Below are positions 2,069-64,000 of a stretch of DNA of 64,000 nt, one piece after another. Both the position numbers and the translations under genes were made by a program. The DNA is taken from positions 1 through 64,000 of the forward strand of contig JAHRHZ010000018.1 of the NCBI GenBank assembly GCA_024137785.1, written 5' to 3'. The notes below the pieces were generated by a model. The model was not told the origin of the DNA and made no database searches. It was given only the letters and a program-made list of their open reading frames with translations. This DNA comes from Ginglymostoma cirratum (Eukaryota). Positions within the stretch are counted from its first letter, which is position 1, and each line of letters begins with the position of its first letter.

Positions 2069-2120
2069 ATGATCCGTGGACCTCTATTTGCTGTGACCCT
2101 GTCCCTCTGTGTTGCTTTGG
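2069..2120 (+). pseudogene. Leader (signal peptide) exon, copy A, of an IgSF receptor: MIRGPLFAVTLSLCVAL-G
   Basis: ATG, 17 mostly hydrophobic codons, phase-1 donor G|gtaagt; the exon plus about 200 bp of intron is duplicated at 16076-16328. Confidence 0.8.
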
Positions 2121-11390: not shown

Positions 11391-11975
11391 ATCAGAGATA
11401 ATAGGTACTGCAGATGCGTAGGAGAATCCGACATAACAAGGTGTGGAGCTGGATGAACACAGCAGGCCAAGCAGCATCATAGGAGCAGGAAAGCTTGAGG
11501 AANNNNNNNNNNNNNNNNNNNNNNNNNNNNNNNNNNNNNNNNNNNNNNNNNNNNNNNNNNNNNNNNNNNNNNNNNNNNNNNNNNNNNNNNNNNNNNNNNN
11601 NNNNNNNNNNNNNNNNNNNNNNNNNNNNNNNNNNNNNNNNNNNNNNNNNNNNNNNNNNNNNNNNNNNNNNNNNNNNNNNNNNNNNNNNNNNNNNNNNNNN
11701 NNNNNNNNNNNNNNNNNNNNNNNNNNNNNNNNNNNNNNNNNNNNNNNNNNNNNNNNNNNNNNNNNNNNNNNNNNNNNNNNNNNNNNNNNNNNNNNNNNNN
11801 NNNNNNNNNNNNNNNNNNNNNNNNNNNNNNNNNNNNNNNNNNNNNNNNNNNNNNNNNNNNNNNNNNNNNNNNNNNNNNNNNNNNNNNNNNNNNNNNNNNN
11901 NNTTCCTCAAGCTTTCCTGCTCCTATGATGCTGCTTGGCCTGCTGTGTTCATCCAGCTCCACACCTTGTTATCTC
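11391..11975. mobile_element. PLE-derived inverted-repeat insertion spanning assembly gap 1 (11503-11902)
   Basis: Arms either side of the N-run are reverse complements; flanking duplication ATCTCCAATTTAATAATGT at 11372-11390 and 11971-11989. Confidence 0.85.
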
Positions 11976-12269
11976 CAATTTAATAATGTCCTACACACAG
12001 TACTCCAGAAGAGGTCCAGTTTTAGTGTTAGAGGGTGTGTTGGTATTCATTGAAGACAAAGTGGCAGCATGGCGTGTGTACAAGATGCAACAAGTAGCTG
12101 ACGGATTATTGGACTGGGGACCAGTTTTCAGTGACAAAGGCCTTCTGCCTTCCAACAACTACATGATTGCTAGCACTTCACCTGATGAAGAAGCAGCATT
12201 CCGAAAACTTGTGATTTCAGATAAGCCTTCCTGACCTGCTATGGCCCACTTGGTGGTGGGACATTTGAA

Positions 12270-12545
12270 AGCATCAGAGCATCAGAGAGTGTCAGAAAGT
12301 GAGATGACAGTGCACTAGGATAAACACCAAGCTGCAAGAAGTGAATGTGCGTTGGTAACAACAGCCCGTGGGAAAAGAAAGGAAAAATTGTTAACTCATT
12401 CCAGAAATAATTCACCAGGAGACTCTTCCAGCTTTCCTGCTTCATTTCAACCTTCCAGAGAACTCTCCAAGAACAGCTTCTTTCTGACCATCACAAACGT
12501 GCAGCCCAGTGATACTGCCATCTCTACTTGTAATTTGTGGGGCTA
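12270..12545 (+). pseudogene. Disabled Ig V-set domain exon, copy A
   Basis: Across frameshifts reads EHQRVSESE/QCTRINTKLQEVNVRW*QQPVGKER/LLTHSRNN...FQPSRELSKNSFFLTITNVQPSDTAISTCNLWG; Cys 12311, Trp 12353 (then TAA), Cys 12529; aligns with the domain at 19644. Confidence 0.85.
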
Positions 12546-12579
12546 CACCCAAACAATTACTGCCCCTCAGTCTGATCTA

Positions 12580-16075: not shown

Positions 16076-16127
16076 ATGATCAGTGGAACTCTATTTGCTG
16101 TGACCCTGGCCCTTAGTGTTGCTTTGG
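16076..16127 (+). pseudogene. Leader (signal peptide) exon, copy B: MISGTLFAVTLALSVAL-G
   Basis: Same 52-nt length and G|gtaagt donor as copy A; splices in frame (G+AA = Glu) to the V exon at 19644. Confidence 0.85.
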
Positions 16128-19643: not shown

Positions 19644-19990
19644 AAAATGCAAATGCCACAGTCCTTCTCCAGTCTCCGAGCTTGCAACATGTCGCTGAAG
19701 GTCGCACTGTCCGGTTACAGTGCACCGTGAGGTACACTGCAATGACACATACCAATGTTTACTGGTACCGGAAGCAACCAGGACATCAGAGGGAGTGGAT
19801 TTTGGTACATTACTCACTAAATTACACACAACTGTACTCAGGATTCACTGAGTAATTGCTGCCATCCAGAGAACCCTCCAGTAACAGCTTCATCTGGCAA
19901 TCACTAACATGCAGCCCAGTGACACTGGGGTCTAATGCTGCTCAGTATGGGCAACGATCTATACAAGAGGAAGCCAGCTCATTGTAGACA
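19644..19990 (+). pseudogene. Disabled single-exon VJ-type Ig V domain, copy B
   Basis: Acceptor tttatttag|; NANATVLLQSPSLQHVAEGRTVRLQC...VYWYRKQPG...FTE* (TAA 19853) LLPSREPSSNSF/1-nt frameshift/LAITNMQPSDTGV* (TAA 19933) CCSVWATIYTRGSQLIVD; phase-1 donor A|gtaagt. Confidence 0.93.
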
Positions 19991-33904: not shown

Positions 33905-34790
33905 TCACACCCCTCTCCAATCGAATCCTGAATGTTGACATTGATTCTACACCTGCCATTAATCTGAAGTGACTCCCAGAGCCTCCCCACCCTCTGGGTG
34001 AAGGGATTTTCCATGTGTCAGTACTCAGTTTTTCTTGTTGCATTTTGTATCCATGACCCCTCATTCTTCACTCCCTCAATAGTCTGTTTCCATCTCGGTT
34101 ATTGCCCCTTGAAAGGGTTTGAAAGACTTTGATCATAAACTAGTAGTGTGTGTCCTTCCAATGATACAAAGGTATTCTGAAGTCTGTCATTGTGTTTGTA
34201 TGTGCTTATCCCAGACAACATCCCTCTGAGTTGCTGTGGTTCGCTCCCTCAGTATTTTCTCAGTCTGAACAAGCTGAAAGTGCAGCAAGTCTCTCGAAGA
34301 AATCTCTCTCTTCCACAATCGGAAACAAGAACAACTTGGACAAGTTTCTCAGCAGGCCCACTCGTTTCAAATTTTTCCCTTTGTTGGTCACACAAATTCT
34401 GCTCTTTTTAGTAAATGATCCAAGTTTCTAGATCATCCTTTTTCATCTTTTTGCTCAAAGTGTGTGGTGAAAAATGTAAAATCCATCAGCCCCGTGAGTG
34501 TGAAGATTATGGCATACTTCTGTGGTGAATGTGCAATAAATCTACCGTGTGGCATTTATTTAGAAGCCCTGTTGAAGATCAGAACACTGTGTATGCGATA
34601 GTAAATGGTAAGCAAGCTAATTCAATCATTATCACAACGTTTAGCAGGACTTACACTCTGTTCCAAGTATCCCCTTTACATGGTTAGATTCCTGATGTGA
34701 TAAATACGCTAAAAAATAGAACAGGTCATTTGTCTGATTGACACAATTTACCATCATGGTCACTCAATGAGGCATATTCAGACAAGGCTG
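33905..34790 (+). repeat. Segment duplicated in inverted orientation at about 55390-56262
   Basis: Colinear reverse-complement similarity, e.g. tgtgtttgtatgtgcttatcc, cctgttgaaga, ggttagattcctgatgtg; includes an old CR1 3' remnant and a 44-nt exon. Confidence 0.9.
34564..34607 (+). pseudogene. Cytoplasmic exon SPVEDQNTVYAIVN with ITSM-type motif TVYAIV
   Basis: tttatttag| acceptor, G|gtaagc donor, 44 nt, phase 2 to 1; paralogue of the same length at 55580-55623. Confidence 0.75.
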
Positions 34791-36007: not shown

Positions 36008-36051
36008 ATTGAATATGGACCAGAGAGCTAGCAGCTGTTCGTCCTGCAGTG
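36008..36051 (+). pseudogene. Cytoplasmic exon D*IWTRELAAVRPAV (in-frame TGA 36010-36012)
   Basis: Strong acceptor ttgtattttctttcag| and donor G|gtaagg; the phase 1 to 0 frame links the flanking exons but contains a stop. Confidence 0.6.
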
Positions 36052-37111: not shown

Positions 37112-37234
37112 CTGGCTGAAGGGGAATGTCTTTATGCTGAGCTTCACTTTCACCAACAAGGAACCAGCCGGCCGACAGTGACAGCTGCTGAAAGTAACTC
37201 GGAGTATGCAGTTGTAAAACCGGCAAGAAACTGA
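37112..37234 (+). pseudogene. Terminal cytoplasmic exon LAEGECLYAELHFHQQGTSRPTVTAAESNSEYAVVKPARN* with two ITIM-like motifs
   Basis: tttctcttcgattccag| acceptor, phase 0; CLYAEL and SEYAVV with tyrosines 24 residues apart; the exon itself is intact. Confidence 0.85.
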
Positions 37235-41777: not shown

Positions 41778-42294
41778 GATAACAAGGTGTAAAGCTGGAT
41801 GAACACAGCAGGCCAAGCAGCATCGGAGGAGCAGGAAAGCTGACNNNNNNNNNNNNNNNNNNNNNNNNNNNNNNNNNNNNNNNNNNNNNNNNNNNNNNNN
41901 NNNNNNNNNNNNNNNNNNNNNNNNNNNNNNNNNNNNNNNNNNNNNNNNNNNNNNNNNNNNNNNNNNNNNNNNNNNNNNNNNNNNNNNNNNNNNNNNNNNN
42001 NNNNNNNNNNNNNNNNNNNNNNNNNNNNNNNNNNNNNNNNNNNNNNNNNNNNNNNNNNNNNNNNNNNNNNNNNNNNNNNNNNNNNNNNNNNNNNNNNNNN
42101 NNNNNNNNNNNNNNNNNNNNNNNNNNNNNNNNNNNNNNNNNNNNNNNNNNNNNNNNNNNNNNNNNNNNNNNNNNNNNNNNNNNNNNNNNNNNNNNNNNNN
42201 NNNNNNNNNNNNNNNNNNNNNNNNNNNNNNNNNNNNNNNNNNNNTACACCTTGTTATCTCAGATTCTCCAGCATCTGCAGTTCCCACTTTTTCT
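41778..42294. mobile_element. PLE-derived inverted-repeat insertion spanning assembly gap 2 (41845-42244)
   Basis: Inverted arms; duplication GAGTACTGAAACTGA at 41763-41777 and 42295-42309. Confidence 0.85.
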
Positions 42295-45584: not shown

Positions 45585-45627
45585 CTTTAAGCTCATTTTA
45601 AAGAGAATGATCCAGATACTTCATTGT
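45585..45627 (-). pseudogene. Cytoplasmic exon TMKYLDHSL*NELK, second half of an ITAM-like motif
   Basis: Strong acceptor tttctctttttcctttcag| and donor AAG|gtatgt; 43 nt, phase 0 to 1; TAA at 45598-45600 sits where Y of YNEL is expected. Confidence 0.65.
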
Positions 45628-46609
45628 CTGAAAGGAAAAAGAGAAATGTTAAAAAATGTGGTCTATAACATTGACACAATGATGGCTTATTTAGAATTAT
45701 TTCACATTCTAACAATATATACTGTTTATGGGTAAAAGGGATTTCTCTCCCTGGAAGCAGATCCATGTTAACAGCCTCCTTCACTCATTAGTATCGGCTG
45801 AGAGGAAAAATCATTTGTTTTTGAGACTGGAGATTTTGGATTGAAAGCCAAGTCCTGACATTTGATCATACCATCCAAGATGGTCCCTCAGTGCAGTACA
45901 GAGGCAGTGCAGCATTGTCAGCAGGATAGGCTTTTCAATGAGATGACAAACTGAAGCCCTGTCTTCTCGATCAAGGGGACAGATGAATTTTTTGAAAGAA
46001 ATTTCTTTCCTCAAACTGCTAATCTTTGGAATTCTCTCCCCAACACAGTTGACAAATTTCCAGCTTTGAGAGCATCTTTTGTTGAAATGGACAGGCCTCT
46101 GGCTTTTCTGAGAATTTTTGGGACATGAGGAGCAGGTGGAAAAGTGGAATTGGGGCAGATTATCCTTCAGGATTGTATCTAATGGTGAAGCAGCTTGGAG
46201 GCGCTATCGGCTTTACACTTGCTCCTATTTCTTATGTTCTCATATTCCAAAGCAGCATTGTTATCCCAGTGACCTTGCTGCATTTAAACTGATCCCTCCT
46301 TTTGGAGAACAGTGACCACGGTTCTAAAGGACTTCATTTGTTGCAAAGTCTACCAGGCCATGTTGAGGCTGTGAGAGGAGTGATATAAATGGAAAAAGTT
46401 ATTTCTTTATGAGAATTGTGGAATGCAGTGATGACCACAGCTTACTACTGAGGTTGGAAGTGACTGAGGAGACCAGAGTATTATGTATGGGAGAGGAAGG
46501 GACAGCAGAGAGTCTGTGAAGTTGATTGGAAGAGGATGATAATTGAACTTAGGGTTTCCAGGATGGGGCTCAAGGGCTGATGGTCTGAACCTGGGACTGG
46601 AAAGCAATG

Positions 46610-47880
46610 ATATCAGAGAGTGGAGACAGTAAAATGAGAGCTGACCAGGAAGATCCCAGTAATCAAGTTGGGAATCCATCATGGTGGACAATCTGGATTC
46701 TAGTCACTGACCACATTCCCACTAGTGATCATTGGTGGATAGAGATGTCAGTCAGATGATGGGGCCAATTGAAACTCAGGAAGAGGACTGTTTGGGAATA
46801 GGGTGAATTTTGTAAAATTCGGATGTTAATTGCAGCGTGAGATATTTACCATATATGTTGAATCAGAATCTGCTGGAGAATCTTTCACATTCTGTAATAA
46901 GACGGAAACAACAAAGATGGGGTTAATTAATCATTGTGAAATGAGAGACAATTGAATGCTGATTAGGCAGAGCAGAGAATTATAGTTTTGAAACATTTCT
47001 ATTTCCATGAAAGTGGCTGATTTGCCAAACAGTTTCTGAATCCTGGTTGTAGGCAGCTGACAGTACAGCCAAGTGGAAGAGGAATAGAACTCCTGGAGAG
47101 AAGCAGATCCCAGAGGGAAAATCAGGAACAATATCAGCAATATTTTGACCTGAACATCCCAGTCAGATTGAACCCTTATTGTGAATTACACAAGGCAAGT
47201 TGGATCAGTATGTTTCATTTGCCAATTTTAGTGTTTTATTTTCCTGCTGAAGGATTAGTCACTGGTCACCATGAGGGCAAATTAAAGATGAACCATACTA
47301 AGCTGCTCTCAAATAGCCCCAAATGAGTGTGTGAGAGATTATGCAGAGATCTGGGATCAGATCTCCTGCTCTGTCTCTATGTCAGCAAGTAATGAACTAG
47401 CGACACAAGCTGTCATGGAGCGGAAATGGTTTTATCATTTGTATTTTTGATTGTGGACCGAAATGGGAAATTCACTGTTCTATAAACCAAGAATTGTTGA
47501 GGTATTATTGCACTGTCTGAAATCAAGGAAACTGACTCTCATTGTTGAGGCAGTATTGGGAGTGTGTTTACAGACCAGATGCAGCTGGAGAGTGGAGAGG
47601 GAGAGGGGTGTAAGAGGGGGTGTCAAAATATCATTCTAATTGGCAACACATAGCTGATTGGTCTGTGAACACATGATAGCAAATGCCTTCTCCTCCCAAT
47701 AATGATGTGAGTGTTTCACAGGGAGCTGAACAATTTTGGGCGTGTGAACAAGATACAGTGAAGCCAACAGTTCTCCACCAGGTCAGGAGCTGTCTCTCTG
47801 TTCTCTGCAGCAAAACAGTACTTTGAGCCTGAAGAAAGTCTGCTGATTTCTTCTTCAGCATTTCCCGTAAGCTGGAGGTT
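46610..47880. repeat. Unit 1 of an approximately 1.3-kb direct duplication (unit 2 at about 51095-52360)
   Basis: Colinear similarity, e.g. atcagagagtggagacagtaa, gggaatagggtgaattttgtaaaa, gcagctgacagtacagcc, cctgaagaaagtc. Confidence 0.92.
46850..46891 (-). pseudogene. Cytoplasmic exon NVKDSPADSDSTYM, first half of the ITAM-like motif, copy 1
   Basis: tcttattacag| acceptor, ATG|gtaaat donor, 42 nt, phase 0 to 0. Confidence 0.7.
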
Positions 47881-50815
47881 ATAAGACCATAAGACCATAA
47901 GGCATAGGAGCAGAAATTAAGCCATTTGGCACATCGAGACTTCTCTGCCATTCAATCATTGCTGATAAGTTCCTCAACCCCATTTTCCTGCTTTCTCCCT
48001 GTAACCCCTGATCCCCTTGATAATCAAGAACCTATCGATCTCAGTCTTAAATGTACTCAATGACCTCGCCTCCACAGCCTTCTGTGGCAGTGAATTCCAT
48101 AGATTCACCACTCCCTGGCTGAAGAAGTTTCTCCTTATCTCCATTCTAAAAGGTCTTCCCTTTACTCTAAGGCTGTGCCCTCGGATCCTAGACTCTCCTA
48201 CCAATGGAAGCATCTTCCCAACATCCACTCTGTCCAGGCCATTCAGTATTCTGTAAGTCTTAATTAGATCACCCCCCCATCCTTCTAAACACCAATGAGT
48301 ATAGTCCCAGAGTCCTCAAACTTTCCTCATATGTTAAGCTTTCCATTCCTGGGACTATTCTCATGAACCTCCTTTGAACTCGCTCCAGGGCCAGTACATC
48401 CTTCCTGACATATGGGGCCCAAAACTGCACATAATACTCCAAATGTGGCCTGGCCAGAGCCTTATAAATCCTCAGTCGTACATCCCTGCTTTTATATTCA
48501 AGTCCTTTCAAAATAAATGCCATTATTGCATTTGCCTTCCTGACTACTGACTCAACCTGCAAGTTTAACTTGAGAGAACAAAAACAAAATTGTTGGAGGG
48601 GCTCAGCAGGTCAGAGGAAGTGTCACCGGACCCAAAATGTTTACTCTGTTTTTCCCTTCACAGATGCTGTCAGACCTGCTGAGCCTCTCCAACAATTTTG
48701 TTTTTGTTCCTGATTTACAGCATTCACAGTTCTTTCGGTTTTTACCTTGAGAGAATCCTGGACGAGAACTCCCAAGTCTCTTTGCACTTCAGACTTCTGA
48801 ATTGTCCCCATTTAGAAAATAGTCCATGCTTCTATTCTTCTTACCAAAGTGCATGACCTCACACTTTCCCACTTTGTACTCCATCTGCCACTTCTTTGCC
48901 CATTCTACTAACCTGTCCAAATCCTTATGCAGTTTCGCCACCTCCTCAATACGACCTGTCCCTCCACCTATCTTTGTATCATCTGCAAACTTAGCCAGAA
49001 TGCCCACAGTCCCTTCATCTAGATCATTAATATATAAAGTAAAAAGTTGTGGTCCCAACACTGACCCTTATGGATCACCACTTTACACCGGCTGCCATCC
49101 TGAGAAAGACACATTTATCCCCACTCTCTGTTTTCTATCAGATGGCCAATCTTCTATCCATGCTAGCATCTGGCCTCTAACACCATGGACCCTTATTTTA
49201 CTCACCAGCCTCCTGTGTGGCACCTTATCAAAGGCCTTTTTGAAGTCCAGGTAGATAACACCTATTGGGTCTCCTTGGTCTACCCTGCTCATTACTTCCT
49301 CAAAGAATTCTAGCAGATTTGTCTGCTAGGTAACCTCCCCTTGATGAAACTGTGCTGACTTTACCCTATTTTACTATACACTTCTAAATATTCGGAAATC
49401 TCATTTTTTACAATGGACTCCAAAATCTTACCCATGGCCGAGGTTAGGCTAATCGGCCTGTAATTTTCCATCTTTTGCCTTACTCCCTTTTTAAACAGGG
49501 GTATCATGTTAGTGATTTTCCAGTTGTCTGGGACCCTCCCTGACTCTAGTGATTCCTGAAAGATCACCACTAACTCTTCCACTATCTCTTCAGCTATCTC
49601 CTTTAGAACTCTGAAGAGTAGTCCATCTGGTCCAGGTAATTTGTCCACCTTCAGGCCAATCAGTTTTACTAGCACCTTTTCCTTGGCGATGGCCACTATA
49701 CTCAACTCTGCCCCATGACTCTCTTGAATTTTTGGGATATTACTCGTGTCTTCCACCGTGAAGACTGAATCAAAGTAATTATTCAGCTCCTCAGCCATTT
49801 CCTTGTTCCCCACTGTTATTTCTCCACCGTCATTTTCCAGTGGTCCAATGTCCACTTTTGCCTCTCTTTTGCCCTTTATATACCTAAAGAAACTCTTACA
49901 GTCTTCATTTATATTACTGGCTAGTTTACCCTCATATTTAATTTTCTCCCTCCTTATTTCTTTTTTTGTTGCCCTCTGTTGATCTTTGTAAGCTTCCCAG
50001 TCCTCTCGTTTCCCACTGCCCTTTGCCAAATTACATGCTTTCTCTTTTGCTTTTATGCTATCCCTGACTTCCTTGGTCAGCCGTGGTTGCCTCATCCTCC
50101 CTGTACCATGCTTCTTTTTCTTAGGGATGAATTTTTGCTGCATCTCCTGAATTACTCCCAGAAACTCCTGTCTTTGCTGTTCCACTGTCTTTCCTGCTAG
50201 GATCCTCTTCCAGTTAATTCTGTCCTGATCTTCCCTCATACCTCTATAGTCGCTTTTCTTCAGCTGTAATACCATTACCTCTGATTCGATCTTCTCCCTG
50301 TCAAATTGCAGTGTAAATTCTATCAGCTTATGGTCACTGTTTCCTAAGGGTTCCTTTACCTTAAGCTCCCTTATCAAGTCTGCCTCATTGCACAACACTA
50401 ATTCCAGTATTGCCTGTTCCCTTGTGGGCTCCACCACGAGCTGCTCCAAAAAGCTATCTCAGAGACATTCCACAAACTCCTTTTCTTGCAATCCACTACC
50501 AACATGATTTTCCCAGTTCACATGCATATTGAAATCCCCCATGATCACTGTGACTTTGCCTTTCTTACACACCTTTTCTATCTTCCTGGTACATCTCGCA
50601 TCCCAGCTCCTGACTACTGTTTGGAGGCCTGTACACAACCCCAACTATGGTTTTTTTTTTACCTTTGAAGCTCCTCAATTCTACCCACACAGATTCTACA
50701 CCATCTGACCCTAATTTGTTTCTTCCTATTGATTTAATTTCATTTCTCACGAAAAAGGCAACCCCCCCCCCCCTTGGCCCACCTGCCTGTCTTTTCGATA
50801 GGATGTATATCCTAC
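47881..50815 (-). mobile_element. 5'-truncated CR1 LINE with most of ORF2, containing a small inverted PLE-type insert (about 48579-48745)
   Basis: IMGDFN, SDH, YLDFKKAFDKVPH, AKFADDTK; (TCTTATGG)n tail at 47881-47901; insert flanked by CTTGAGAGAA. Confidence 0.95.
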
Positions 50816-51045
50816 TGAATCAGCATGAGTGCTATAAGTGTGAATCAGTCAGAGAGCTGCTATTAGTGTGAATCTGTCAGGGAGCTGCCAAAAATGTGAA
50901 TCATTCAGGGAGCTACAACAAGTATAAATCTGTCAGGGAGATGCCACTAGTGTGAATCAGTCAGAGAGTTGCTATTCATGTGAATTAGTCAAAGAGTTGC
51001 CATAAATGTGAATCAGTCAGGGAGCTGCTATAAGTGTGAAGCAGT
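50815..51045. repeat. About 28-29-bp minisatellite (roughly 8 degenerate copies; 2-3 more at 52368-52432)
   Basis: Unit gtgtgaatcagtcagggagctgctataa. Confidence 0.9.
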
Positions 51046-51331
51046 CCCCCTGTGCCCCCTGTAAACTAGTGAAAGCATCTGGAGAAGGAATGGGATCAGA
51101 GAGTGGAGACAGTAATATGAGACATGAGCAGGAAGATCCCAGTAATTGAATTGGGAATGCAGCATGAAGGACAATCTGGTTTGCTAGGCACTGAGCACAT
51201 TCCCACTGGAGGCGATTAGTGGATAGAAATGTTAGTCAGATGATACGACCAACGGGAACGCAGAAAGAGAACTCTGGGAATAGGGTGAATTTTGTAAAAC
51301 CCAGATGATAATTGCAATGCGACATATTCAC

Positions 51332-51373
51332 CATGTATGTTGAGTCAGAATTTGCTGGACAATCTTTCACATG
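51332..51373 (-). pseudogene. Cytoplasmic exon HVKDCPANSDSTYM, copy 2
   Basis: tcttattacag| acceptor, ATG|gtgaat donor, 42 nt; synonymous differences from copy 1 at the Asp and Tyr codons. Confidence 0.7.
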
Positions 51374-51930
51374 CTGTAATAAGATGGAAACAAGAAATAT
51401 TACATTCAGTTATCATTGTGAAATGAGAGATGACTGAACACTGATTAGACAGAGTCAGGAATTACAGCGTTGAAATGTTTCTATTTCCATGGAAGCAGCT
51501 GATTTAACAAACAATTTCCAAATCATAACTGTGAGCAGCTGACAGTACAGCCGAGTGGAAGCGGAATAGAGTTACTGCAGAGAAGCAGATCCCAGGCCTG
51601 AACATTCTAGTCAAACTGAACCCTCATTTTGAGTTACACAAGGCAAGTTGGACCAGTATATCTCATTTGCCATTTTGAGTACTTTTTTTTCTGCTGAAGG
51701 TTCAGTCACTGGTCACCATGAAGGCAAATTGGAGATGAGTCATGATGAGCTGCTCTCCAATAGTTCTGAATGTATGTGTGAGAGGCTATGTAGAGACCTG
51801 GGATCAGTTCGCCTGGTCTCTCTCCATGCCAGGGAGTAATGAGCTAGAGACATGAGCTGTCATGGAGTGGAAATGTTTTCATCTTTTGTATCTTTGATTG
51901 TGGACTGAAATGGGAAATTCACTGATTTAC

Positions 51931-51962
51931 CAATCAAGGATTGTCAGGGATTGCCGCACTTT
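51931..51962 (-). pseudogene. Possible 32-nt cytoplasmic exon (E)SAAIPDNP*L; paralogue at about 47488-47516
   Basis: ttgatttcag| acceptor in both units, TTG|gtaaat donor; phase 1 to 0 would bridge the 55580 and STYM exons; contains TGA. Confidence 0.4.
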
Positions 51963-52509
51963 CTGAAATCAAGTCACCTGACGCTCATTGTAAGTTTTGC
52001 TTACACAGCTGCCTTTTAGGGCAGAAGTGGGAGAAGATTTACAGACCAGATGAAGCTGAATGGTGGAGAGGGAGGCGATGAGGGGAGGAGGACATGTCAA
52101 AATGTCTTTCTAACCAGCAACATGTCATTGATTGGTCTGTGAACCCGTGACCAGTTACTGATAACAAATGCCTTCCGCCTCCCAATAATGATGTGAATGG
52201 TTCACAGGGGGCTAAACAACTTTGGAAGTGTTGACAAGTTACAGAGAAAACATTAGATCGCCACCAGCTCAGGAGTCATCTCTGTGTTCTCTGCAGTAAA
52301 CAGCACTTTGACCCTGAAGAAAGTCGACTGATCTCTCCTCAGCATTTGTGTAGGCTGCAGCTTTTAATGAATCAGTCAGTAAGCTGTTATAAATGTGAAT
52401 CAGTCGGGGAGCTGCTATAAGTGTGAATCAGTCCTTGTGTGCCTCCTGTAAATGAGTGAAAACATTTGGAGAAGGAAGATTGAGAAGCAGCGTCTGAGCA
52501 GCACAAGAA

Positions 52510-54360
52510 TCATATAGAAAAAGTTTCTATAAATACATAAAACGAAAAAGAGTGGCTAAAGTAAACATTAGCCCTTTAGAGGATGAGAAGGGGAATTTAG
52601 TTATGGGATATAATGAAATGGCCGAGGCATTGAACAGGTATTTTGTATCAGTCTTCACAGTGGAGGACACTGATAACATGCCAGTAATTGACAAGAGACG
52701 AAGGTAGGTGAAGACCTGGAAACAATCATTATTACGGAAGAGGTAGTGTTGGGCAAGCTAATGGAGCTAAGGATTGATAAGTCTCCTGGCCCTGATGGAA
52801 TGCATCCCAGGGTACTAAAATAGATGGCAGGAGAAATAGCATGTGCACTGGCGGTAATTTTCCAAAATTCGCTGGGCTCTGAGGCAGTCCCAGCAGATTG
52901 GAAAATAGCAATTGTGATGCCACTGTTTAAAAAAGGATGTAGACAAAAGATGGGGAATTATAGACCGGTTAGCTTAACCTCTGTAGTGGGGGAGATGCTT
53001 GAGTCTATTATCAAGGAAGAAATAGCAAGACATCTCGATAGAAATTGTCCCATTGGGCAGACGCAGCATGGGTTCATGAAGGGCAGGTCATGCTTGACAA
53101 ATCTTTTGGAATTCTGTGAAGACATTACGAGCAAGGTGGGCAATGGGGACCCAGTGGATGTGGTGTACCTGGATTTCCAAAAGGCCTTCGACAAGGTGCC
53201 GCACAAAAGGCTGGTGTATAAGATAAGGGTGCATGGCGTTAGGAGTAAAGTATTAGCATGGATAGAGGATTGGTTGACTTACAGGAAGCAAAGAGTGGGG
53301 ATAAATGAGTGCTATTCTGACTGGCAATCAGTGACTTGAGGTGTGCCTCAGGGATCGGTGTTGGGACCGCAATTATTTACTATTTATATAGATGACTTGG
53401 AGTTGGGGACAACTTGTAGGGTGTCAAAGTTTGCAGATGACACTAAGATATGTGGCAGAGCAAAGTGTGCAGAGGACTGTGAAATCTTACAGAGGAACAT
53501 AGATACATTGAGTGAGTGGGCAAAGGTCTGGCAGATGGAATACAATGTAAATAAATGCAAAGTCACACATTTTCGTAGGAGTAATAGTAAAAAGGATTAT
53601 TACTTTAATGGTAAAAAGTTGCATCATGCTGCTATGCAGAGGGACCTGGGTGTCCTTGTGCATGAATCACAGAAGGTTGGTCTGCAGGTACAACAAGTAA
53701 TTAGGAAGGCAAATGGAATTTTGTCCTTCATTGCTAAAGGGGTTGAGTTTAAAAGCAGAGAGGTTATGTTGCAGCTGTACAAGGTGCTGGTGAGGCCACA
53801 CCTGGAGTACTGTGCGCAGTTTTGGTCTCCTTACTTGAAAAAGGATGTACTGGCACCGGAGAGGGTGCAGAGGAGGTTCACTAGGTTGATTCAGGAGTTG
53901 AGGGGGTTGGCTTATGAGGAAAGACTGAGTAGATTGGGATTATATTCATTGGAATTCAGAAGATTGAGAGGGGATCTTATAGAAACATATAAAATTATGA
54001 AGGGAATAGATAAGATAGAAGTAGAGAGGATGTTCCCACTGGCAGGTGAAACTAGGACAAGAGGGCATAGCTTCAAGATTAGAGGGAGCAGATTTAGGAC
54101 TGAATTGAGAAGGAACTTCTTCATCCAGAGGGTTGTTAATCTATGGAATTCTCTGCCCAGTGAAGTAGTTGACGCTACTTCAGTAAACGTCTTTAAAGCT
54201 AAGGTAGATATCTTTTTGAACAATAAAGGAATTAAGGGACACGGTGAGAGCGTGGTTAAGTGGATCTGAGTCCACAAAAAGATCAGCCATGATCTTATCG
54301 AATGGCGGAGCAGGCTCAAAGGGCCGGACATCCTACTCCTGCTCCTAGTTCTTATGTTAT
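52510..54360 (+). mobile_element. Young 5'-truncated CR1 LINE (RT region almost intact)
   Basis: ORFs 52824-53339 and 53343-54269 are in the same frame, separated by one stop; YLDFQKAFDKVPH, PQGSVLGP, SKFADDTK. Confidence 0.95.
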
Positions 54361-55579
54361 GTATCTCAGAAAATCCTGTCGACAGGGAACTCTGAACTAT
54401 CTTCCCAGTTTTTCCCTCAGTCCATAACACCCATGTTTTTATCTATGTCAGTCTTTATGTTGGAAAGCAGGAGTTTATAACAGGGCATGAGTTTTAACTG
54501 GTACTTTTGTATCTGAATCCCTCATCATTGTTTTCCTGTAACTAGATTCTATTTCTTTGTAATAAACAGGAACTCTTGTTCTGGAGAGAAACCTGGTTTT
54601 GCTTTCTGGCCACCTGGGTCTGAAAGACAGGGAAATGGGGGACTTGCATATGGTTTATTAAATCTTCAAATTTTGTGACAACTCCAGAAATAGCTGGGAT
54701 CCATTTTAACTGAGGTGTAACAAGGGGCTTAAGACAAGAGGTTGGCTGTGGAGGAGAAGTTGATTTGAAATCATAAATTGACGATGACATGAGCTCATCT
54801 CCTTGGTTGTTTACTGTTCCAGGAATGTGTACAGAAAAAAAAACTGTGAAGCTCACCCATCTGTGTCTTGTCAAAGGAGGGATTCTGTAATCTCCAGGCA
54901 GATGCTGGACACCAGTTGCTATCAATGAGTCATCTGTGAGACAAATCATCAAACATCATGACCAGGCAGCTGGAATGTTGTTTAAGACCATTTCCCTAGA
55001 AAGGCCACATTATTCTGGGATCAGACTTGTCAAGCAGTCTCCTCAACTGGGATCAGAATACTTTCTGCAATGAACATAATTCCTTGATCTCTGATTATTA
55101 TCACAAATTTGACAGATAATACCTTTTCCTGACTCACTCCATCAAAACCCGTAACTTCTTGAAAACCCCATTCGATCCCCTGTCAGCATTCACCGATCTG
55201 AGGAATGGTTCTGAAAGAGACAATATTACATATTTACAAAGGTCTGTCTGTGTCAGCTGGTGGACTACAGAATGCCATTTCTATGTCTGAAGGTCCATCC
55301 ATTTTCAGGGCCATCCATTTTCAGGGCCATTCTTTACACCATTGCTATCCTGAGGGGCAGTCACAAGCTGTAGCTAAAGCCCAGGGGCGTCCTATAACCT
55401 TCATTCTGTCAGCTATGGGTTCGTCACCTTTCATGGTCAGTTCTGTTCATCAGACAAATGCCCTGGCATACCCATTAGCTAATTAAACACATCAGGAATC
55501 TAACCGTGTAAAAGGGATATTTGGAATAGTGAGTAATTCCTGCTAATTGTTGCGATAATGATTAAATTAGTTTGCTTGC

Positions 55580-55623
55580 CACTTACTGTTGCATTCACAG
55601 CACTCTGGTCTTCAACAGGACTC
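55580..55623 (-). pseudogene. Paralogue of the ITSM exon: SPVEDQSAVNATVS (Tyr to Asn; donor GT to GC)
   Basis: cttatttag| acceptor, 44 nt, aligns with 34564-34607. Confidence 0.7.
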
Positions 55624-56437
55624 CTAAATAAGTACCACACATTAGAATTATTGCACATTTACCACAGAACGACATTGTCATCTTCATACTCTCAGTGCTG
55701 ATGGATTTTACACGCTGCACCATGGACATTTCAAATCAACTTAAAGACAAAAAGGATGATGTAGAATTTATGTGAACAACAAAGGAAAGACTTTGACAAA
55801 ATTAGATGGCATGCTGGCAAACTTTGCCAAGTTGTTGTTATTTCCAACTTTGGATGGGAGAGATTTCTTCAAGAAACTTGCTGCACTATCAATTGGTTCA
55901 GACCAATAATACACTGAGGGAGAGAACTGCACCAACTCAGCAGAATGCTGCCCAGGATAAGCACATACAAACACAATGAAAAACTTCAGAATGTCTTTGT
56001 ATCATTGGAAGGACCCAGACTTCAGGGCTATGATCAAAGTCTTTAAAACACTTTTAAGGGGCAATGAACAGGATGGAAACAGACCATTGAGGGGATGAAG
56101 AATGAGGGGTCATGGATACAAACAACAACAAAACAGATTCAGTCTAGATGCTTGGGAAATCCCTTCCCCCCAAGGGTGGGGAGGCTCTGGGATTCACTCC
56201 AGATTAATGGCAGGTGTAGACTCAATGTCAACATTCAGGATTCGATTGGAGAAGGGTGTGAGGATAAAGGGGATTGAATGGATGAGGGAACAGGGCAGGA
56301 AAATGTAATTTGGACGTTCTTGCAGATGTCAAAGTGAAATGCCAGCACGGTCTATTGGGCCAAATAGTCTGGCACTCGCATGGCTTTCCCAGCAGGAGGT
56401 GCTGTGCTGCCAGTGAGCTACCAACACTAAGGCAAAC

Positions 56438-56557
56438 CCTGACACTGGGCTTGGTGGGTAATGATCTGGTATCCACTGGGGATCCTGCAGGTGATGTCTA
56501 ATGCTTGTCCCATTCAAAGCTTTCTGATTGTCACCAGCAGATGCCTGTGGCCTGGTA
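56438..56557 (-). pseudogene. Probable juxtamembrane exon starting TRPQASAGDNQKALNG (3' boundary uncertain)
   Basis: Pyrimidine-rich acceptor ...atgtcctccag|; open in phase 2 after the TM exon; donor GG|gtttgc would keep phase with the 55623 exon. Confidence 0.4.
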
Positions 56558-56768
56558 CTGGAGGACATGTGACACAAGAGATGGAGCAAAATGGCAGCGA
56601 TTGGGCATCTGGACGTGTGGGATGGTCTCGACAGTCACTGATCCACCATTTACAATGGATCTATATGCTGCAGTGGGAATATCAGCACTTACTAAATATA
56701 ATCACTCCAATGTCAAAAACAATAAATGTGCAGTGACAGAATCAAACCCAAGATGAAATGGAATTTAC

Positions 56769-56919
56769 CCTCGTGTGGAGTCCTTTACTGATGAGCACAG
56801 ATTTTGTTTCTGAAGGAGCAATGTGAGCAAGACAATGCAGATCACAACAGTGAAACCCAGAATGATGCCAATGATTAGAATGGGATCTGAAATCCAGCGA
56901 ATACCATGAGAAGATTCTT
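56769..56919 (-). CDS. Transmembrane exon ESSHGIRWISDPILIIGIILGFTVVICIVLLTLLLQKQNLCSSVKDSTR of a type I receptor (gene probably disabled downstream)
   Basis: ctgatattttacag| acceptor, phase-1 start as expected after an Ig exon, 23 uncharged hydrophobic residues then QKQ, donor GG|gtaaat (alternative at 56789). Confidence 0.85.
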
Positions 56920-58999
56920 CTGTAAAATATCAGAATGTTACACACATAGTCATTTCAGTCTGAGCAACGTCTAAAATTGACAATAAATTTTGTGTTCCTC
57001 AGGACAGTAACCCTTCTCCTGGCTCCTCAAAGCTGTCCACTATCCACAAGGCACATTTCAGGAGTGTGATGGAATACTCCCCACTTCCCTGCTTGGATAG
57101 CTGAACATGATTGTGGAAACCCTGGACCTTGGTGAGGGTGCCATTCACAAACTGGCTTATCACCCACTCCATGTTGCTGCCAGGTCACTGGTAGTGCAAC
57201 TGGACATCAGTGTCAATCACACTGGCATTGTACATGGTACACTGGAACTCAACAGTTTCACCCTCTGGTACCTTGCTGACCACTCGATACTGAATGAGGA
57301 CTGGATCAGCCAATGGATCTGTTCATTTTGAAGAGAAAAAAAAATGTAACTTGAATTGCAGCATTTTAAAAAATCTCCTCCTGGTTAAATGATGATTTGC
57401 AGAGGATCAACTGAAGCTTCTTGTGTGGCTATTGCTGTTTGTGATTTGAGAGGGAATAATTTGAAATATATCCATCAGCTGAAAGCTTTCTAATTTGCTG
57501 CTTTGATTTATTTTGAGCAGGGTCCTGCCACAGAATAATCTATCGAGAGGAGAATCTCACAATGTGCACAGCTGACTGATTGGAGGAGATCAAATAGCAA
57601 TTTACAAAGTTTCATTCTCACCAAAAACCGAAAGGAAGCAGTTGAAAGTTTCAAACCGCCTGCAATTGATCCCTCCTGACCACATGCTGTAATGATTCAT
57701 TGTTGCTGTATCCTATTCTCTCTCCCAACGGTATGCGGGGACTTGAGGAGAAAGCAGGGCAATGGCAGTCAGGAATGATGCTTCATTTGAAGTTTCAGTG
57801 CAGATAGGATGGGGCTGAATGATCTCCTTCTACACTGGAACATTTCTGTGATTCTCTAATCCTATCCCTGAGTCAGCTATCCCCTGACTGCTCTTGCCTG
57901 GAATTGCATCAGCAATGGGGAAAATGAGGACCTTCTGATTGGAATCTCAGACTTTCTCCTCCATTCCTGACCAAGGTTATCATCCCAGGGTCGGGAAATG
58001 TTTGGGGTTGAGACCCAAACACAAACCTGTGCCATTGGGCTCACTGTTAGAAAGGTCTGGGACCCAAACCGGCCTCACCTGCAGTCACATCCTCCTGTCC
58101 CTGATCCATGACTAATCTCCAATTCCCTAATCCAAGTGGTGTGAGCATCCTCTGGAGAAAGGTTTCCAAGGAACTTTCCCCTTCTCTGTTGTGACACAAT
58201 GTTTTCATCTTAGACTCCAGCTCCTCAATTTGGATCTAAATTTTCTTGAGCTGCGAATACTTACTCCGGATGTGTTCACTCTGGATCCTCCTGGGTTTAA
58301 GGGGACTTCTTTGAAACAGATGTGATCCTTAGGGGGCTTGACTTGGTGGACATGGAAAGTATGGCTCCTTTTGTGGGACCTTTGAGAATTAGGGGGCCAA
58401 GTTTAAAAATGAGGAAGTACACATTTAAGACAAAGATGAGGATTTTTTTTTTCTCAGAAAATTTTGAGTGCTTGGAATTTCCGTCATCAAAAGGCAGTGA
58501 ATGTAGAATCTTTAAATATTTTTAAGGCTGAGAGAGGGAGTTTCTTGATTACTCAGGGCGTGCAAAATTAACAGGAGTGTTTAGGAATGTGGAGTAGTGA
58601 TTAAAATAGGATTATCCATCATTTTATTTAGTCAAGGAGCAGGCTTAATGGGCTGAACGGCCTACTCCTGTTCCTGTCTGTCTGTGTCTCTTGAACTAAG
58701 GGAATGAAAGAGGGCCTCAAGAAGGGGAGTAACCAGGGTGGGTGTGAGGAATGGTTTAGCTCAGGACAAGGACATCAGAGGTGGAGGTGGGAGTGTCATT
58801 GAGCAGAACAGGAGCTGCAGCGGATTGTGGGGAATGACGGCCTAAAGATTCGAGAGCTGAGAATGTGAAATTTCCTCGATAAGTTACTCACATCTTAGTG
58901 GGTTACACTGGAGCCCAATTAACCTTAAGTTTAAATGATGTTGAGATACAGATCAGCCATGGTTCATTTGAATGTGGAACTAGCTCATGGTGGTGAATG

Positions 59000-63679: not shown

Positions 63680-64000
63680 CTCTCCAACTGGATTTCCATT
63701 CCAATCGTTTTTCTTGTCCACCGACATTAATCTCAGTGTTGCTCCTGGTGTTTGACTAGGTATTTGCAAAAACCTGTTTCCACAACATATCACATTCCTC
63801 GGTGACTGCCTCCTGCTGAGACTCAACTCATGTGGATTCCAACTCAAGTTTGGGCTTTGAATCCACCCAGGATCACAAGTATCTTGACATGTTCAACATT
63901 TCACAGACAGGTGTCCTCAACGCATCCTGAGACCCACACATACCTGAGCTCTTTCTCCAACATCATCACATCATGCTGGCTTAGGGTTGCATCATTACAT
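63680..64000 (+). mobile_element. Decayed N-terminal region of a Penelope-like ORF
   Basis: FLGDCLLLRLNSCGFQLKF-like segment resembling PLE N-termini. Confidence 0.5.

What the first reader, a model, noticed from the sequence alone, without database searches (positions are those of the whole stretch)
45585..46891. ITAM-like motif split by a phase-0 intron, with the second Tyr mutated to stop
Joining 46850-46891 to 45585-45627 gives DSDSTYM|TMKYLDHSL*NELK, i.e. YxxM-x7-(Y)xxL if TAA derives from TAY. A phase-0 intron inside the first YxxL is the known layout of CD3, FcR-gamma and DAP12 ITAMs. Neither exon appears as such in the ORF track. The first half is YxxM, which is also a PI3K-binding consensus.
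Basis: partly seen in the sequence, partly recalled or inferred. Interest (0 to 1): 0.75.

Follow-up and report, generated by a model that had tools for sequence, protein, structure and literature searches.

The report
Broken shark activating immune receptor copy
Two small spliced exons encode the activating signal motif (ITAM) of a shark immune-receptor family, but in this copy the second tyrosine codon is a stop, most likely one of several lesions in a decaying gene copy rather than a new signalling design.

Summary
Observation confirmed. Exons A (46891-46850) and B (45627-45585, minus strand) are real: strong splice sites, best matches in the window to the ITAM tail of a shark multi-V-domain receptor family, and joined exactly, TAA included, in one low-depth public contig with no mismatches. 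18 of 19 stored ITAM-tail records have Tyr at the stop's position; 5 of 5 contigs in each of two runs of a close relative read C there, giving TAC. So TAA is a recent Tyr-to-stop change. But the neighbourhood is a graveyard: the upstream V exon has a stop, a lost Trp and no second Cys; another exon has a GC donor; the opposite-strand paralogue and both other V exons are broken. The host is not CD3, FcR-gamma or DAP12 but an unnamed shark family of paired receptors with ITAM or ITIM tails. Best reading (0.68): decay of a redundant activating copy. Not excluded (0.15): a live receptor that skips the broken V exon and keeps YMNV and YMTM motifs. The family and this unannotated tail subtype are more interesting than the stop.

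The parts
46850..46891 (-). Exon A, 42 nt, phase 0-0; ends in Tyr-Met, first half of the split tyrosine motif
   Evidence: spliced to exon B in a contig of X12
45585..45627 (-). Exon B, 43 nt, phase 0-1; rest of the ITAM, second Tyr codon is TAA
45598..45600 (-). TAA at the place of the second ITAM Tyr; 13 nt before the exon B donor
   Evidence: C at 45598 (minus strand) in 5 of 5 contigs of X1 and of X7; TAA in one zero-difference contig of X12; distance
51332..51373 (-). Exon A2, tandem copy of exon A (37 of 42 nt alike) inside a 1.3-kb duplication; A2 spliced to A would give a YMNV motif
   Evidence: order X, A2-like, A-like in a contig of X23
54857..54933 (-). Exon X, 77 nt, phase 1-0, open frame with one Tyr (YRIP); not found in annotated proteins
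   Evidence: 29 of 29 nt match to the loose end upstream of an A2-like piece in X23
55580..55623 (-). First cytoplasmic exon of the ITIM-type genes, here with Tyr replaced by Asn and a GC donor where the paralogue has GT
56769..56919 (-). Intact transmembrane exon of the type that carries ITIM tails in annotated relatives; no charged residue in the membrane stretch
57095..57319 (-). Broken V-set exon: Trp to Leu at 57199, TGA at 57187-57185, likeness to homologues ends near 57095 before the second Cys

Best explanation
Exons A and B are the spliced ITAM module of an activating member of a shark multi-V-domain paired-receptor family, and the TAA is a recent change of a Tyr codon that most likely fixed without selection in a copy that was already decaying. 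Shown: the exons, their splicing, Tyr in relatives, the other lesions. Inferred: in intact relatives both tyrosines would be phosphorylated and would recruit a Syk/ZAP-70-type kinase directly, without a DAP12 or FcR-gamma adaptor (uncharged membrane stretch); this copy, which lacks an intact V exon in the window, would make no working receptor and is still weakly transcribed; other copies with TAC would carry the function.
For: Family tail has the same register and Tyr in 18 of 19 stored records, the other being an alternative-acceptor isoform. The sawshark record P0075 also has Tyr-Met before the split and ends the motif YSELK. 5 of 5 contigs in X1 and in X7 read C at 45598, including the one closest to the window. 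Upstream V exon: stop, Trp to Leu, no second Cys. Exon 55623-55580 has a GC donor. Both plus-strand V exons and the paralogue's exon at 36008 hold stops or frameshifts, one of them also TAA at a Tyr position (19933-19935). No leader or other V exon was found in the 6.7 kb upstream. One X12 contig (depth 3.6, weak) reads C at 45598, so organism B may hold an intact copy. Loss of activating partners is known (PMC12447643, PMC2110893, passages).
Against: The chain TM, cyt1, X, A2, A has compatible phases and no stop or frameshift over about 350 nt up to the TAA. The A-B intron is still spliced. V exons are phase 1-1, so the broken one could be skipped if intact ones lie beyond base 64000, which I could not see (no genome held). 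Only 2 of 51 single-base routes to a stop in these six exons lie in this codon, about 4% for a pre-named codon, though the codon was picked after the fact.
Confidence: 0.68

Rival explanations
1. A live, tail-truncated receptor: upstream V exons outside the window would splice past the broken V exon to the intact TM, and the stop would turn the ITAM tail into a co-stimulatory one that keeps YMNV (Grb2-type) and YMTM (PI3K-type) but cannot bind both Syk SH2 domains.
For: Open, in-phase exon chain to the stop; A-B splicing with TAA in X12; the ITIM-like Tyr in cyt1 is lost as an activating tail would need; the stop is 13 nt from the exon end, so it would escape nonsense-mediated decay if the next exon is the last, as in relatives (50-nt rule recalled).
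Against: The only X12 contig keeps intron sequence on both outer sides and has depth 2.4. GC donor in cyt1, with a strong out-of-frame GT donor 7 nt upstream that puts exon X into stops. 0 of 11 stored proteins with this TM type carry an ITAM. All 3 V exons in the window are broken.
Confidence: 0.15
2. A null allele: the gene (or the X-A2-A-B module, served by another 5' part) works in the species with TAC, and this individual or haplotype carries a TAA variant.
For: One X12 contig reads C at 45598 beside the TAA contig; relatives are only about 5% away and all read C.
Against: That contig has depth 3.6 and also differs at 45596, like the paralogous contigs of organism A, so it looks like a paralogue rather than an allele; the V exon is wrecked independently of the stop.
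Confidence: 0.12
3. The TAA is a sequencing or assembly error in an intact Tyr codon.
For: The window has N gaps, as draft assemblies do; raw genomic reads of this organism were not available to lay.
Against: A contig from run X12 matches the window with no difference across the codon; it may be the same individual, but it is a separate read set.
Confidence: 0.03

Closest known systems
Unnamed shark multi-V receptors in RefSeq/UniRef (e.g. XP_043552678.1, XP_060686747.1, XP_072436345.1, UniRef100_UPI00398F1CC7 with ITAM tails; XP_059504819.1, XP_043551185.1 with ITIM tails)
   Same: V domain 52-78% identical; same TM type as the ITIM members; exons A and B match the ITAM members in length, register and Tyr positions; isoform pairs place introns at the same points.
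   Different: Here the ITAM module follows an ITIM-type TM, has exon X instead of the YENV exon, a doubled exon A, Met in the first motif and a stop in the second. None of 83 stored family proteins has this tail.
ITAM-bearing CEACAMs paired with CEACAM1 (CEACAM3; dog CEACAM28)
   Same: Ig receptor with its own ITAM on small exons, first YxxL split by a phase-0 intron, paired with an ITIM partner sharing its ectodomain; some members lose the ITAM by early stops (PMC2110893, PMC2832619, passages).
   Different: No homology shown or tested; CEACAM N domains lack the disulfide and J-like end (recalled); mammalian.
Teleost NILT receptors
   Same: Clustered V-type receptors with ITAM or ITIM tails and pseudogenes in the cluster (PMC3022915, passages).
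   Different: NILT V domains carry an extra CX3C/CX6C/CX7C pair and number one or two; the shark proteins read here have three or more V domains ending in a J-like motif.
CD3, FcR-gamma, DAP12, CD79 signalling subunits
   Same: ITAM on two exons split in the first tyrosine module, 7-residue spacer (PMC4536121, PMC4034164, passages).
   Different: These have an acidic TM residue and pair with a ligand-binding chain; the TM here and in the ITAM relatives is uncharged.
NCR3/NKp30, UrIg and CD28-family single-exon V genes of sharks
   Same: Non-rearranging V exon with a J-like end (249 of 258 motifs); YxN and YxxM motifs recall CD28-family tails (PMC11599192, passages).
   Different: UrIg has C1 domains (PMC12227049); CD28-family members have one V domain; no direct sequence comparison with shark NCR3 was run.

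Membership tests
Classical ITAM | Acidic residue three before the first Tyr and 6-8 residue spacer | tested here: met
   D-S-T-Y and a 7-residue spacer; consensus from PMC4536121 and PMC2832619 passages
Classical ITAM | First module YxxL/I | tested here: not met
   YMTM; relatives have YTTL, YSTL, YMAL. Fits only the looser ITAM-like Yxx(L/M/V/I/F) of PMC2832619
Classical ITAM | Second YxxL/I | tested here: not met
   TAA in this copy; Tyr in 18 of 19 family records and C at the third base in 5 of 5 contigs of each organism A run
Classical ITAM | Two exons, boundary inside the first tyrosine module | tested here: met
   Phase-0 joint seen in a contig; isoform P0024 against P0039 puts the family's intron at the same point
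Classical ITAM | Phosphorylation and Syk/ZAP-70 binding | not testable with these tools
   needs a cell assay
Shark multi-V paired-receptor family | V-set exon homologous to the family's membrane-proximal V domain | tested here: met
   30 hits among 47 candidates, 52-78% identity, all sharks; falls in the carpet-shark branch, support 97/98
Shark multi-V paired-receptor family | Intact leader, V domains, TM and tail in one reading frame | tested here: not met
   V exon broken, no leader or further V exon in the 6.7 kb upstream; sequence beyond 64000 unseen
Paired activating/inhibitory receptors | Near-identical ectodomains with opposite tails in one cluster | tested here: met
   In a 24-row tree the V domains do not sort by tail type (shuffles as low: 292 and 500 of 500) and supported branches follow shark lineage; ITIM paralogue in this window
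Paired activating/inhibitory receptors | Shared ligand, opposite signals | not testable with these tools
   no ligand known
CD3 / FcR-gamma / DAP12 adaptors | Acidic residue in the TM | tested here: not met
   TM exon and family TMs are uncharged
NILT | Extra CX3C/CX6C/CX7C pair in the V domain | tested here: not met
   read by eye in the 12 sequences printed
CD28 family | Single extracellular V domain | tested here: not met
   3 or 4 V-set stretches in 5 of 5 relatives scanned
NCR3/NKp30 | Orthology and MHC linkage | not tested
   no shark NCR3 sequence or synteny in hand; an NCR3-like cluster was only one of many V-set neighbours

The most novel reading that the evidence does not exclude
A shark receptor gene built by joining an inhibitory-type ectodomain and TM to an activating tail, then re-tuned by exon doubling (adding YMNV) and a stop at the second ITAM Tyr into a CD28-like co-stimulatory receptor (YxN plus YxxM), inside an undescribed family of germline VJ-type paired receptors.
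Probability: 0.12. Interest if true: 0.7.

Novelty: new member of a known kind. Interest (0 to 1): 0.33.

Why it matters
The stop itself is probably ordinary decay. What matters more is what it marks: sharks have a cluster of receptors made of tandem non-rearranging VJ-like domains with either ITAM or ITIM tails, present from carpet sharks to a sawshark, which carries only automatic names and which my ten literature searches did not find described. Single-exon VJ genes are sought as relatives of the antigen-receptor precursor (PMC12227049, passage), and such paired families are candidates for shark NK or myeloid receptors. The X-A2-A-B tail is a subtype that annotation has missed and that appears spliced in a relative.

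Tried and rejected
No genome is held for the window, so sequence beyond 64000 and the exon after B could not be checked; no convincing last exon was found between 45585 and the N gap near 42250. A search with exon X plus flanks found no protein (1 candidate, none scoring), a weak blank. The representatives search with the P0031 tail gave 4 hits, one family member and three unrelated-looking proteins. No run was on record as RNA: no RNA holder listed; X12 and X23 are taken as RNA only from their joints. Two apparent matches to the family's other TM and YENV exons (near 47328 and 46265) were rejected: profile scans found no spliced exon of either kind. I first placed the ITIM last exon (37115-37231) in this gene; it is on the plus strand. 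I first read a J-like end in the broken V exon; homology stops near 57095, and what follows matched nothing else in the window. The ESM Atlas and PDB gave only generic V-set and antibody neighbours. Three look-ups of earlier findings were empty. Literature searches and an accession search (72, 0 papers) found no description of this family; the library lacks most subscription journals, and I read no supplements.

Full report
Observation. The minus strand holds the two exons exactly as described: A at 46891-46850 (42 nt) and B at 45627-45585 (43 nt), both between AG and GT, with a phase-0 intron between them and TAA at 45600-45598. On a coarse score of my own the four splice sites lie at or above the 97th percentile of all minus-strand AG or GT sites. 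Against profiles built from five family tails, each exon is the best of 126,155 six-frame positions in the window; A clearly, B narrowly. One contig from run X12 (249 nt, depth 2.4) matches the window without a difference over 46960-46850 and 45627-45507 and skips exactly the predicted intron. It keeps intron sequence on both outer sides, so I read it as a partly spliced RNA; the run's kind is not on record.

What the gene is. The broken V exon 10 kb upstream finds 30 shark proteins among 47 candidates at 52-78% identity, with automatic names only. They are chains of V-set domains (3 or 4 stretches in 5 of 5 scanned); 249 of 258 DxxxYxC motifs are followed by a J-like GxGxxLxV. Their tails fall into ITIM/ITSM types and an ITAM type. 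In a rough pattern census of 83 stored family proteins (isoforms included), 18 have an ITAM, and 0 of the 11 with the TM type found in this window do. In a 24-row tree of the membrane-proximal V domain, tail type is not clustered, supported branches follow shark lineage, and the window's domain falls among carpet sharks on a fairly long branch. That is the pattern of paired receptors. That the window is from a carpet shark is an inference from these homologues.

The stop. In 18 of 19 stored ITAM-tail records the residue aligned with the TAA is Tyr; the 19th is an isoform that starts the exon three codons later, which also places the family's intron at the same point. These records come from four species. 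The sawshark record has Tyr-Met before the split and YSELK after it, like the window. In two runs of a close relative (organism A; best contig about 50 differences in 1060 bases), all 5 contigs covering 45598 read C on the coding strand, including the one that agrees with the window at neighbouring sites. No row was listed for the codon's first two bases, but only 40 of 419 rows were shown, so TAC is well supported rather than read out.

The rest of the locus. In order on the minus strand: V exon (57319 to about 57095) with Trp to Leu, a TGA and no second Cys; an intact TM exon (56919-56769) of the type that has ITIM tails in relatives; its first cytoplasmic exon (55623-55580), with the Tyr replaced by Asn and a GC donor where the plus-strand paralogue has Tyr and GT; then likeness to that paralogue ends at 55433. 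A loose end in run X23 (RNA by guess) led to a further exon, X (54933-54857): 29 of 29 bases match, and that contig runs X, an A2-like exon, then an A-like exon whose two differences from the window are both silent. A2 (51373-51332) is a tandem copy of A. Spliced in this order the tail would hold YRIP, YMNV, YMTM and then the stop. All phases fit and no other stop occurs. No annotated protein with exon X was found, a weak blank. Organism A has about 9-11 A-like and 5 B-like contigs, which suggests a small subfamily with a doubled exon A; alleles may inflate these counts. On the plus strand both V exons and one cytoplasmic exon of the inverted ITIM paralogue are broken, one by TAA at another Tyr position.

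How it works. Shown: exon structure, splicing, ancestral Tyr, lesions. From the literature: an ITAM's paired phosphotyrosines dock Syk (PMC4034164, passage on CD79a). Inferred: intact relatives are activating receptors that signal through their own tail, since the TM has no charged residue. For this copy I favour decay (0.68): all 3 V exons in the window are broken, the one in this gene is broken three ways, and activating partners are often lost (PMC12447643; PMC2110893, passages). Against this, the chain from TM to the stop is clean, phase 1-1 V exons can be skipped, the stop lies 13 nt from the exon end and so might escape decay of the message (rule recalled), and only 2 of 51 stop routes in the six exons hit this codon. 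With about 5% divergence from the relative, a clean 350 nt is not surprising either way. A live truncated receptor (0.15) and a null allele (0.12) remain; an assembly error is unlikely (0.03).

Comparison with what is known. The layout is standard: PMC4536121 states that the classical ITAM is always split in its first tyrosine module; PMC2110893 and PMC2832619 give phase 0 for CEACAM ITAMs; PMC4034164 gives phase 0 for the last two CD79a introns. It works like ITAM-bearing CEACAMs or NILTs but is not shown to be homologous to either, fails the NILT cysteine feature, and is not a CD3/FcR-gamma/DAP12 adaptor. The motif assignments YxxM to PI3K and YxN to Grb2 rest on PMC11599192 passages and recall. 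For all papers cited I saw the listing and matching passages only (PMC12227049: also outline and abstract); PMC13668506 and PMC6795676 passages added nothing decisive; no supplements were read. Ten searches found no paper on this family, within a library that lacks most subscription journals.

Verdict. Real feature, correctly read, most likely a lesion in a dying copy of a paired-receptor gene. Interest 0.33, mostly for the unnamed VJ-type family and the unannotated tail subtype.

Noticed in passing
P0002-P0087 (homologues); window 2069-37234 and 45585-57319: An unnamed shark family of receptors made of tandem VJ-like V domains with one ITAM tail type and two ITIM/ITSM tail types; V domains sort by lineage, not by tail. 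No paper found in ten searches.
   Followed up: partly
window 54933-54857, 51373-51332, 46891-46850: An ITAM-tail subtype with a new exon X and a doubled exon A (A2 to A would give YMNV); spliced in that order in a contig of run X23; absent from the annotated proteins retrieved.
   Followed up: partly
window 55210-55194, minus strand: A candidate 17-nt mini-exon (good acceptor, GT donor) whose length would link the TM exon (phase 2) to exon X (phase 1) in frame, bypassing the GC-donor exon. No transcript evidence.
   Followed up: no
window 55433-54933: Likeness to the ITIM paralogue ends here and the ITAM module begins about 500 bases on: a possible recombination joint between an inhibitory and an activating gene.
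   Followed up: partly
window 16076-37234, plus strand: Inverted ITIM-type paralogue: leader 16076-16127, broken V about 19650-19990, no TM exon found, cytoplasmic exons 34564-34607, 36008-36051 (in-frame TGA) and an intact last exon 37112-37234.
   Followed up: partly
window 2069-2120 and about 12260-12560, plus strand: A third relic: leader exon and a heavily broken V exon.
   Followed up: no
P0036, P0037, P0040, P0043, P0044: Annotated isoforms of the ITAM genes that skip the TM exon and would be soluble yet keep the ITAM; gene models only.
   Followed up: no
window about 11500-11903 and 41844-42243: Two N gaps (800 bases in all); the exon expected after B was not identified before the second gap.
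   Followed up: no
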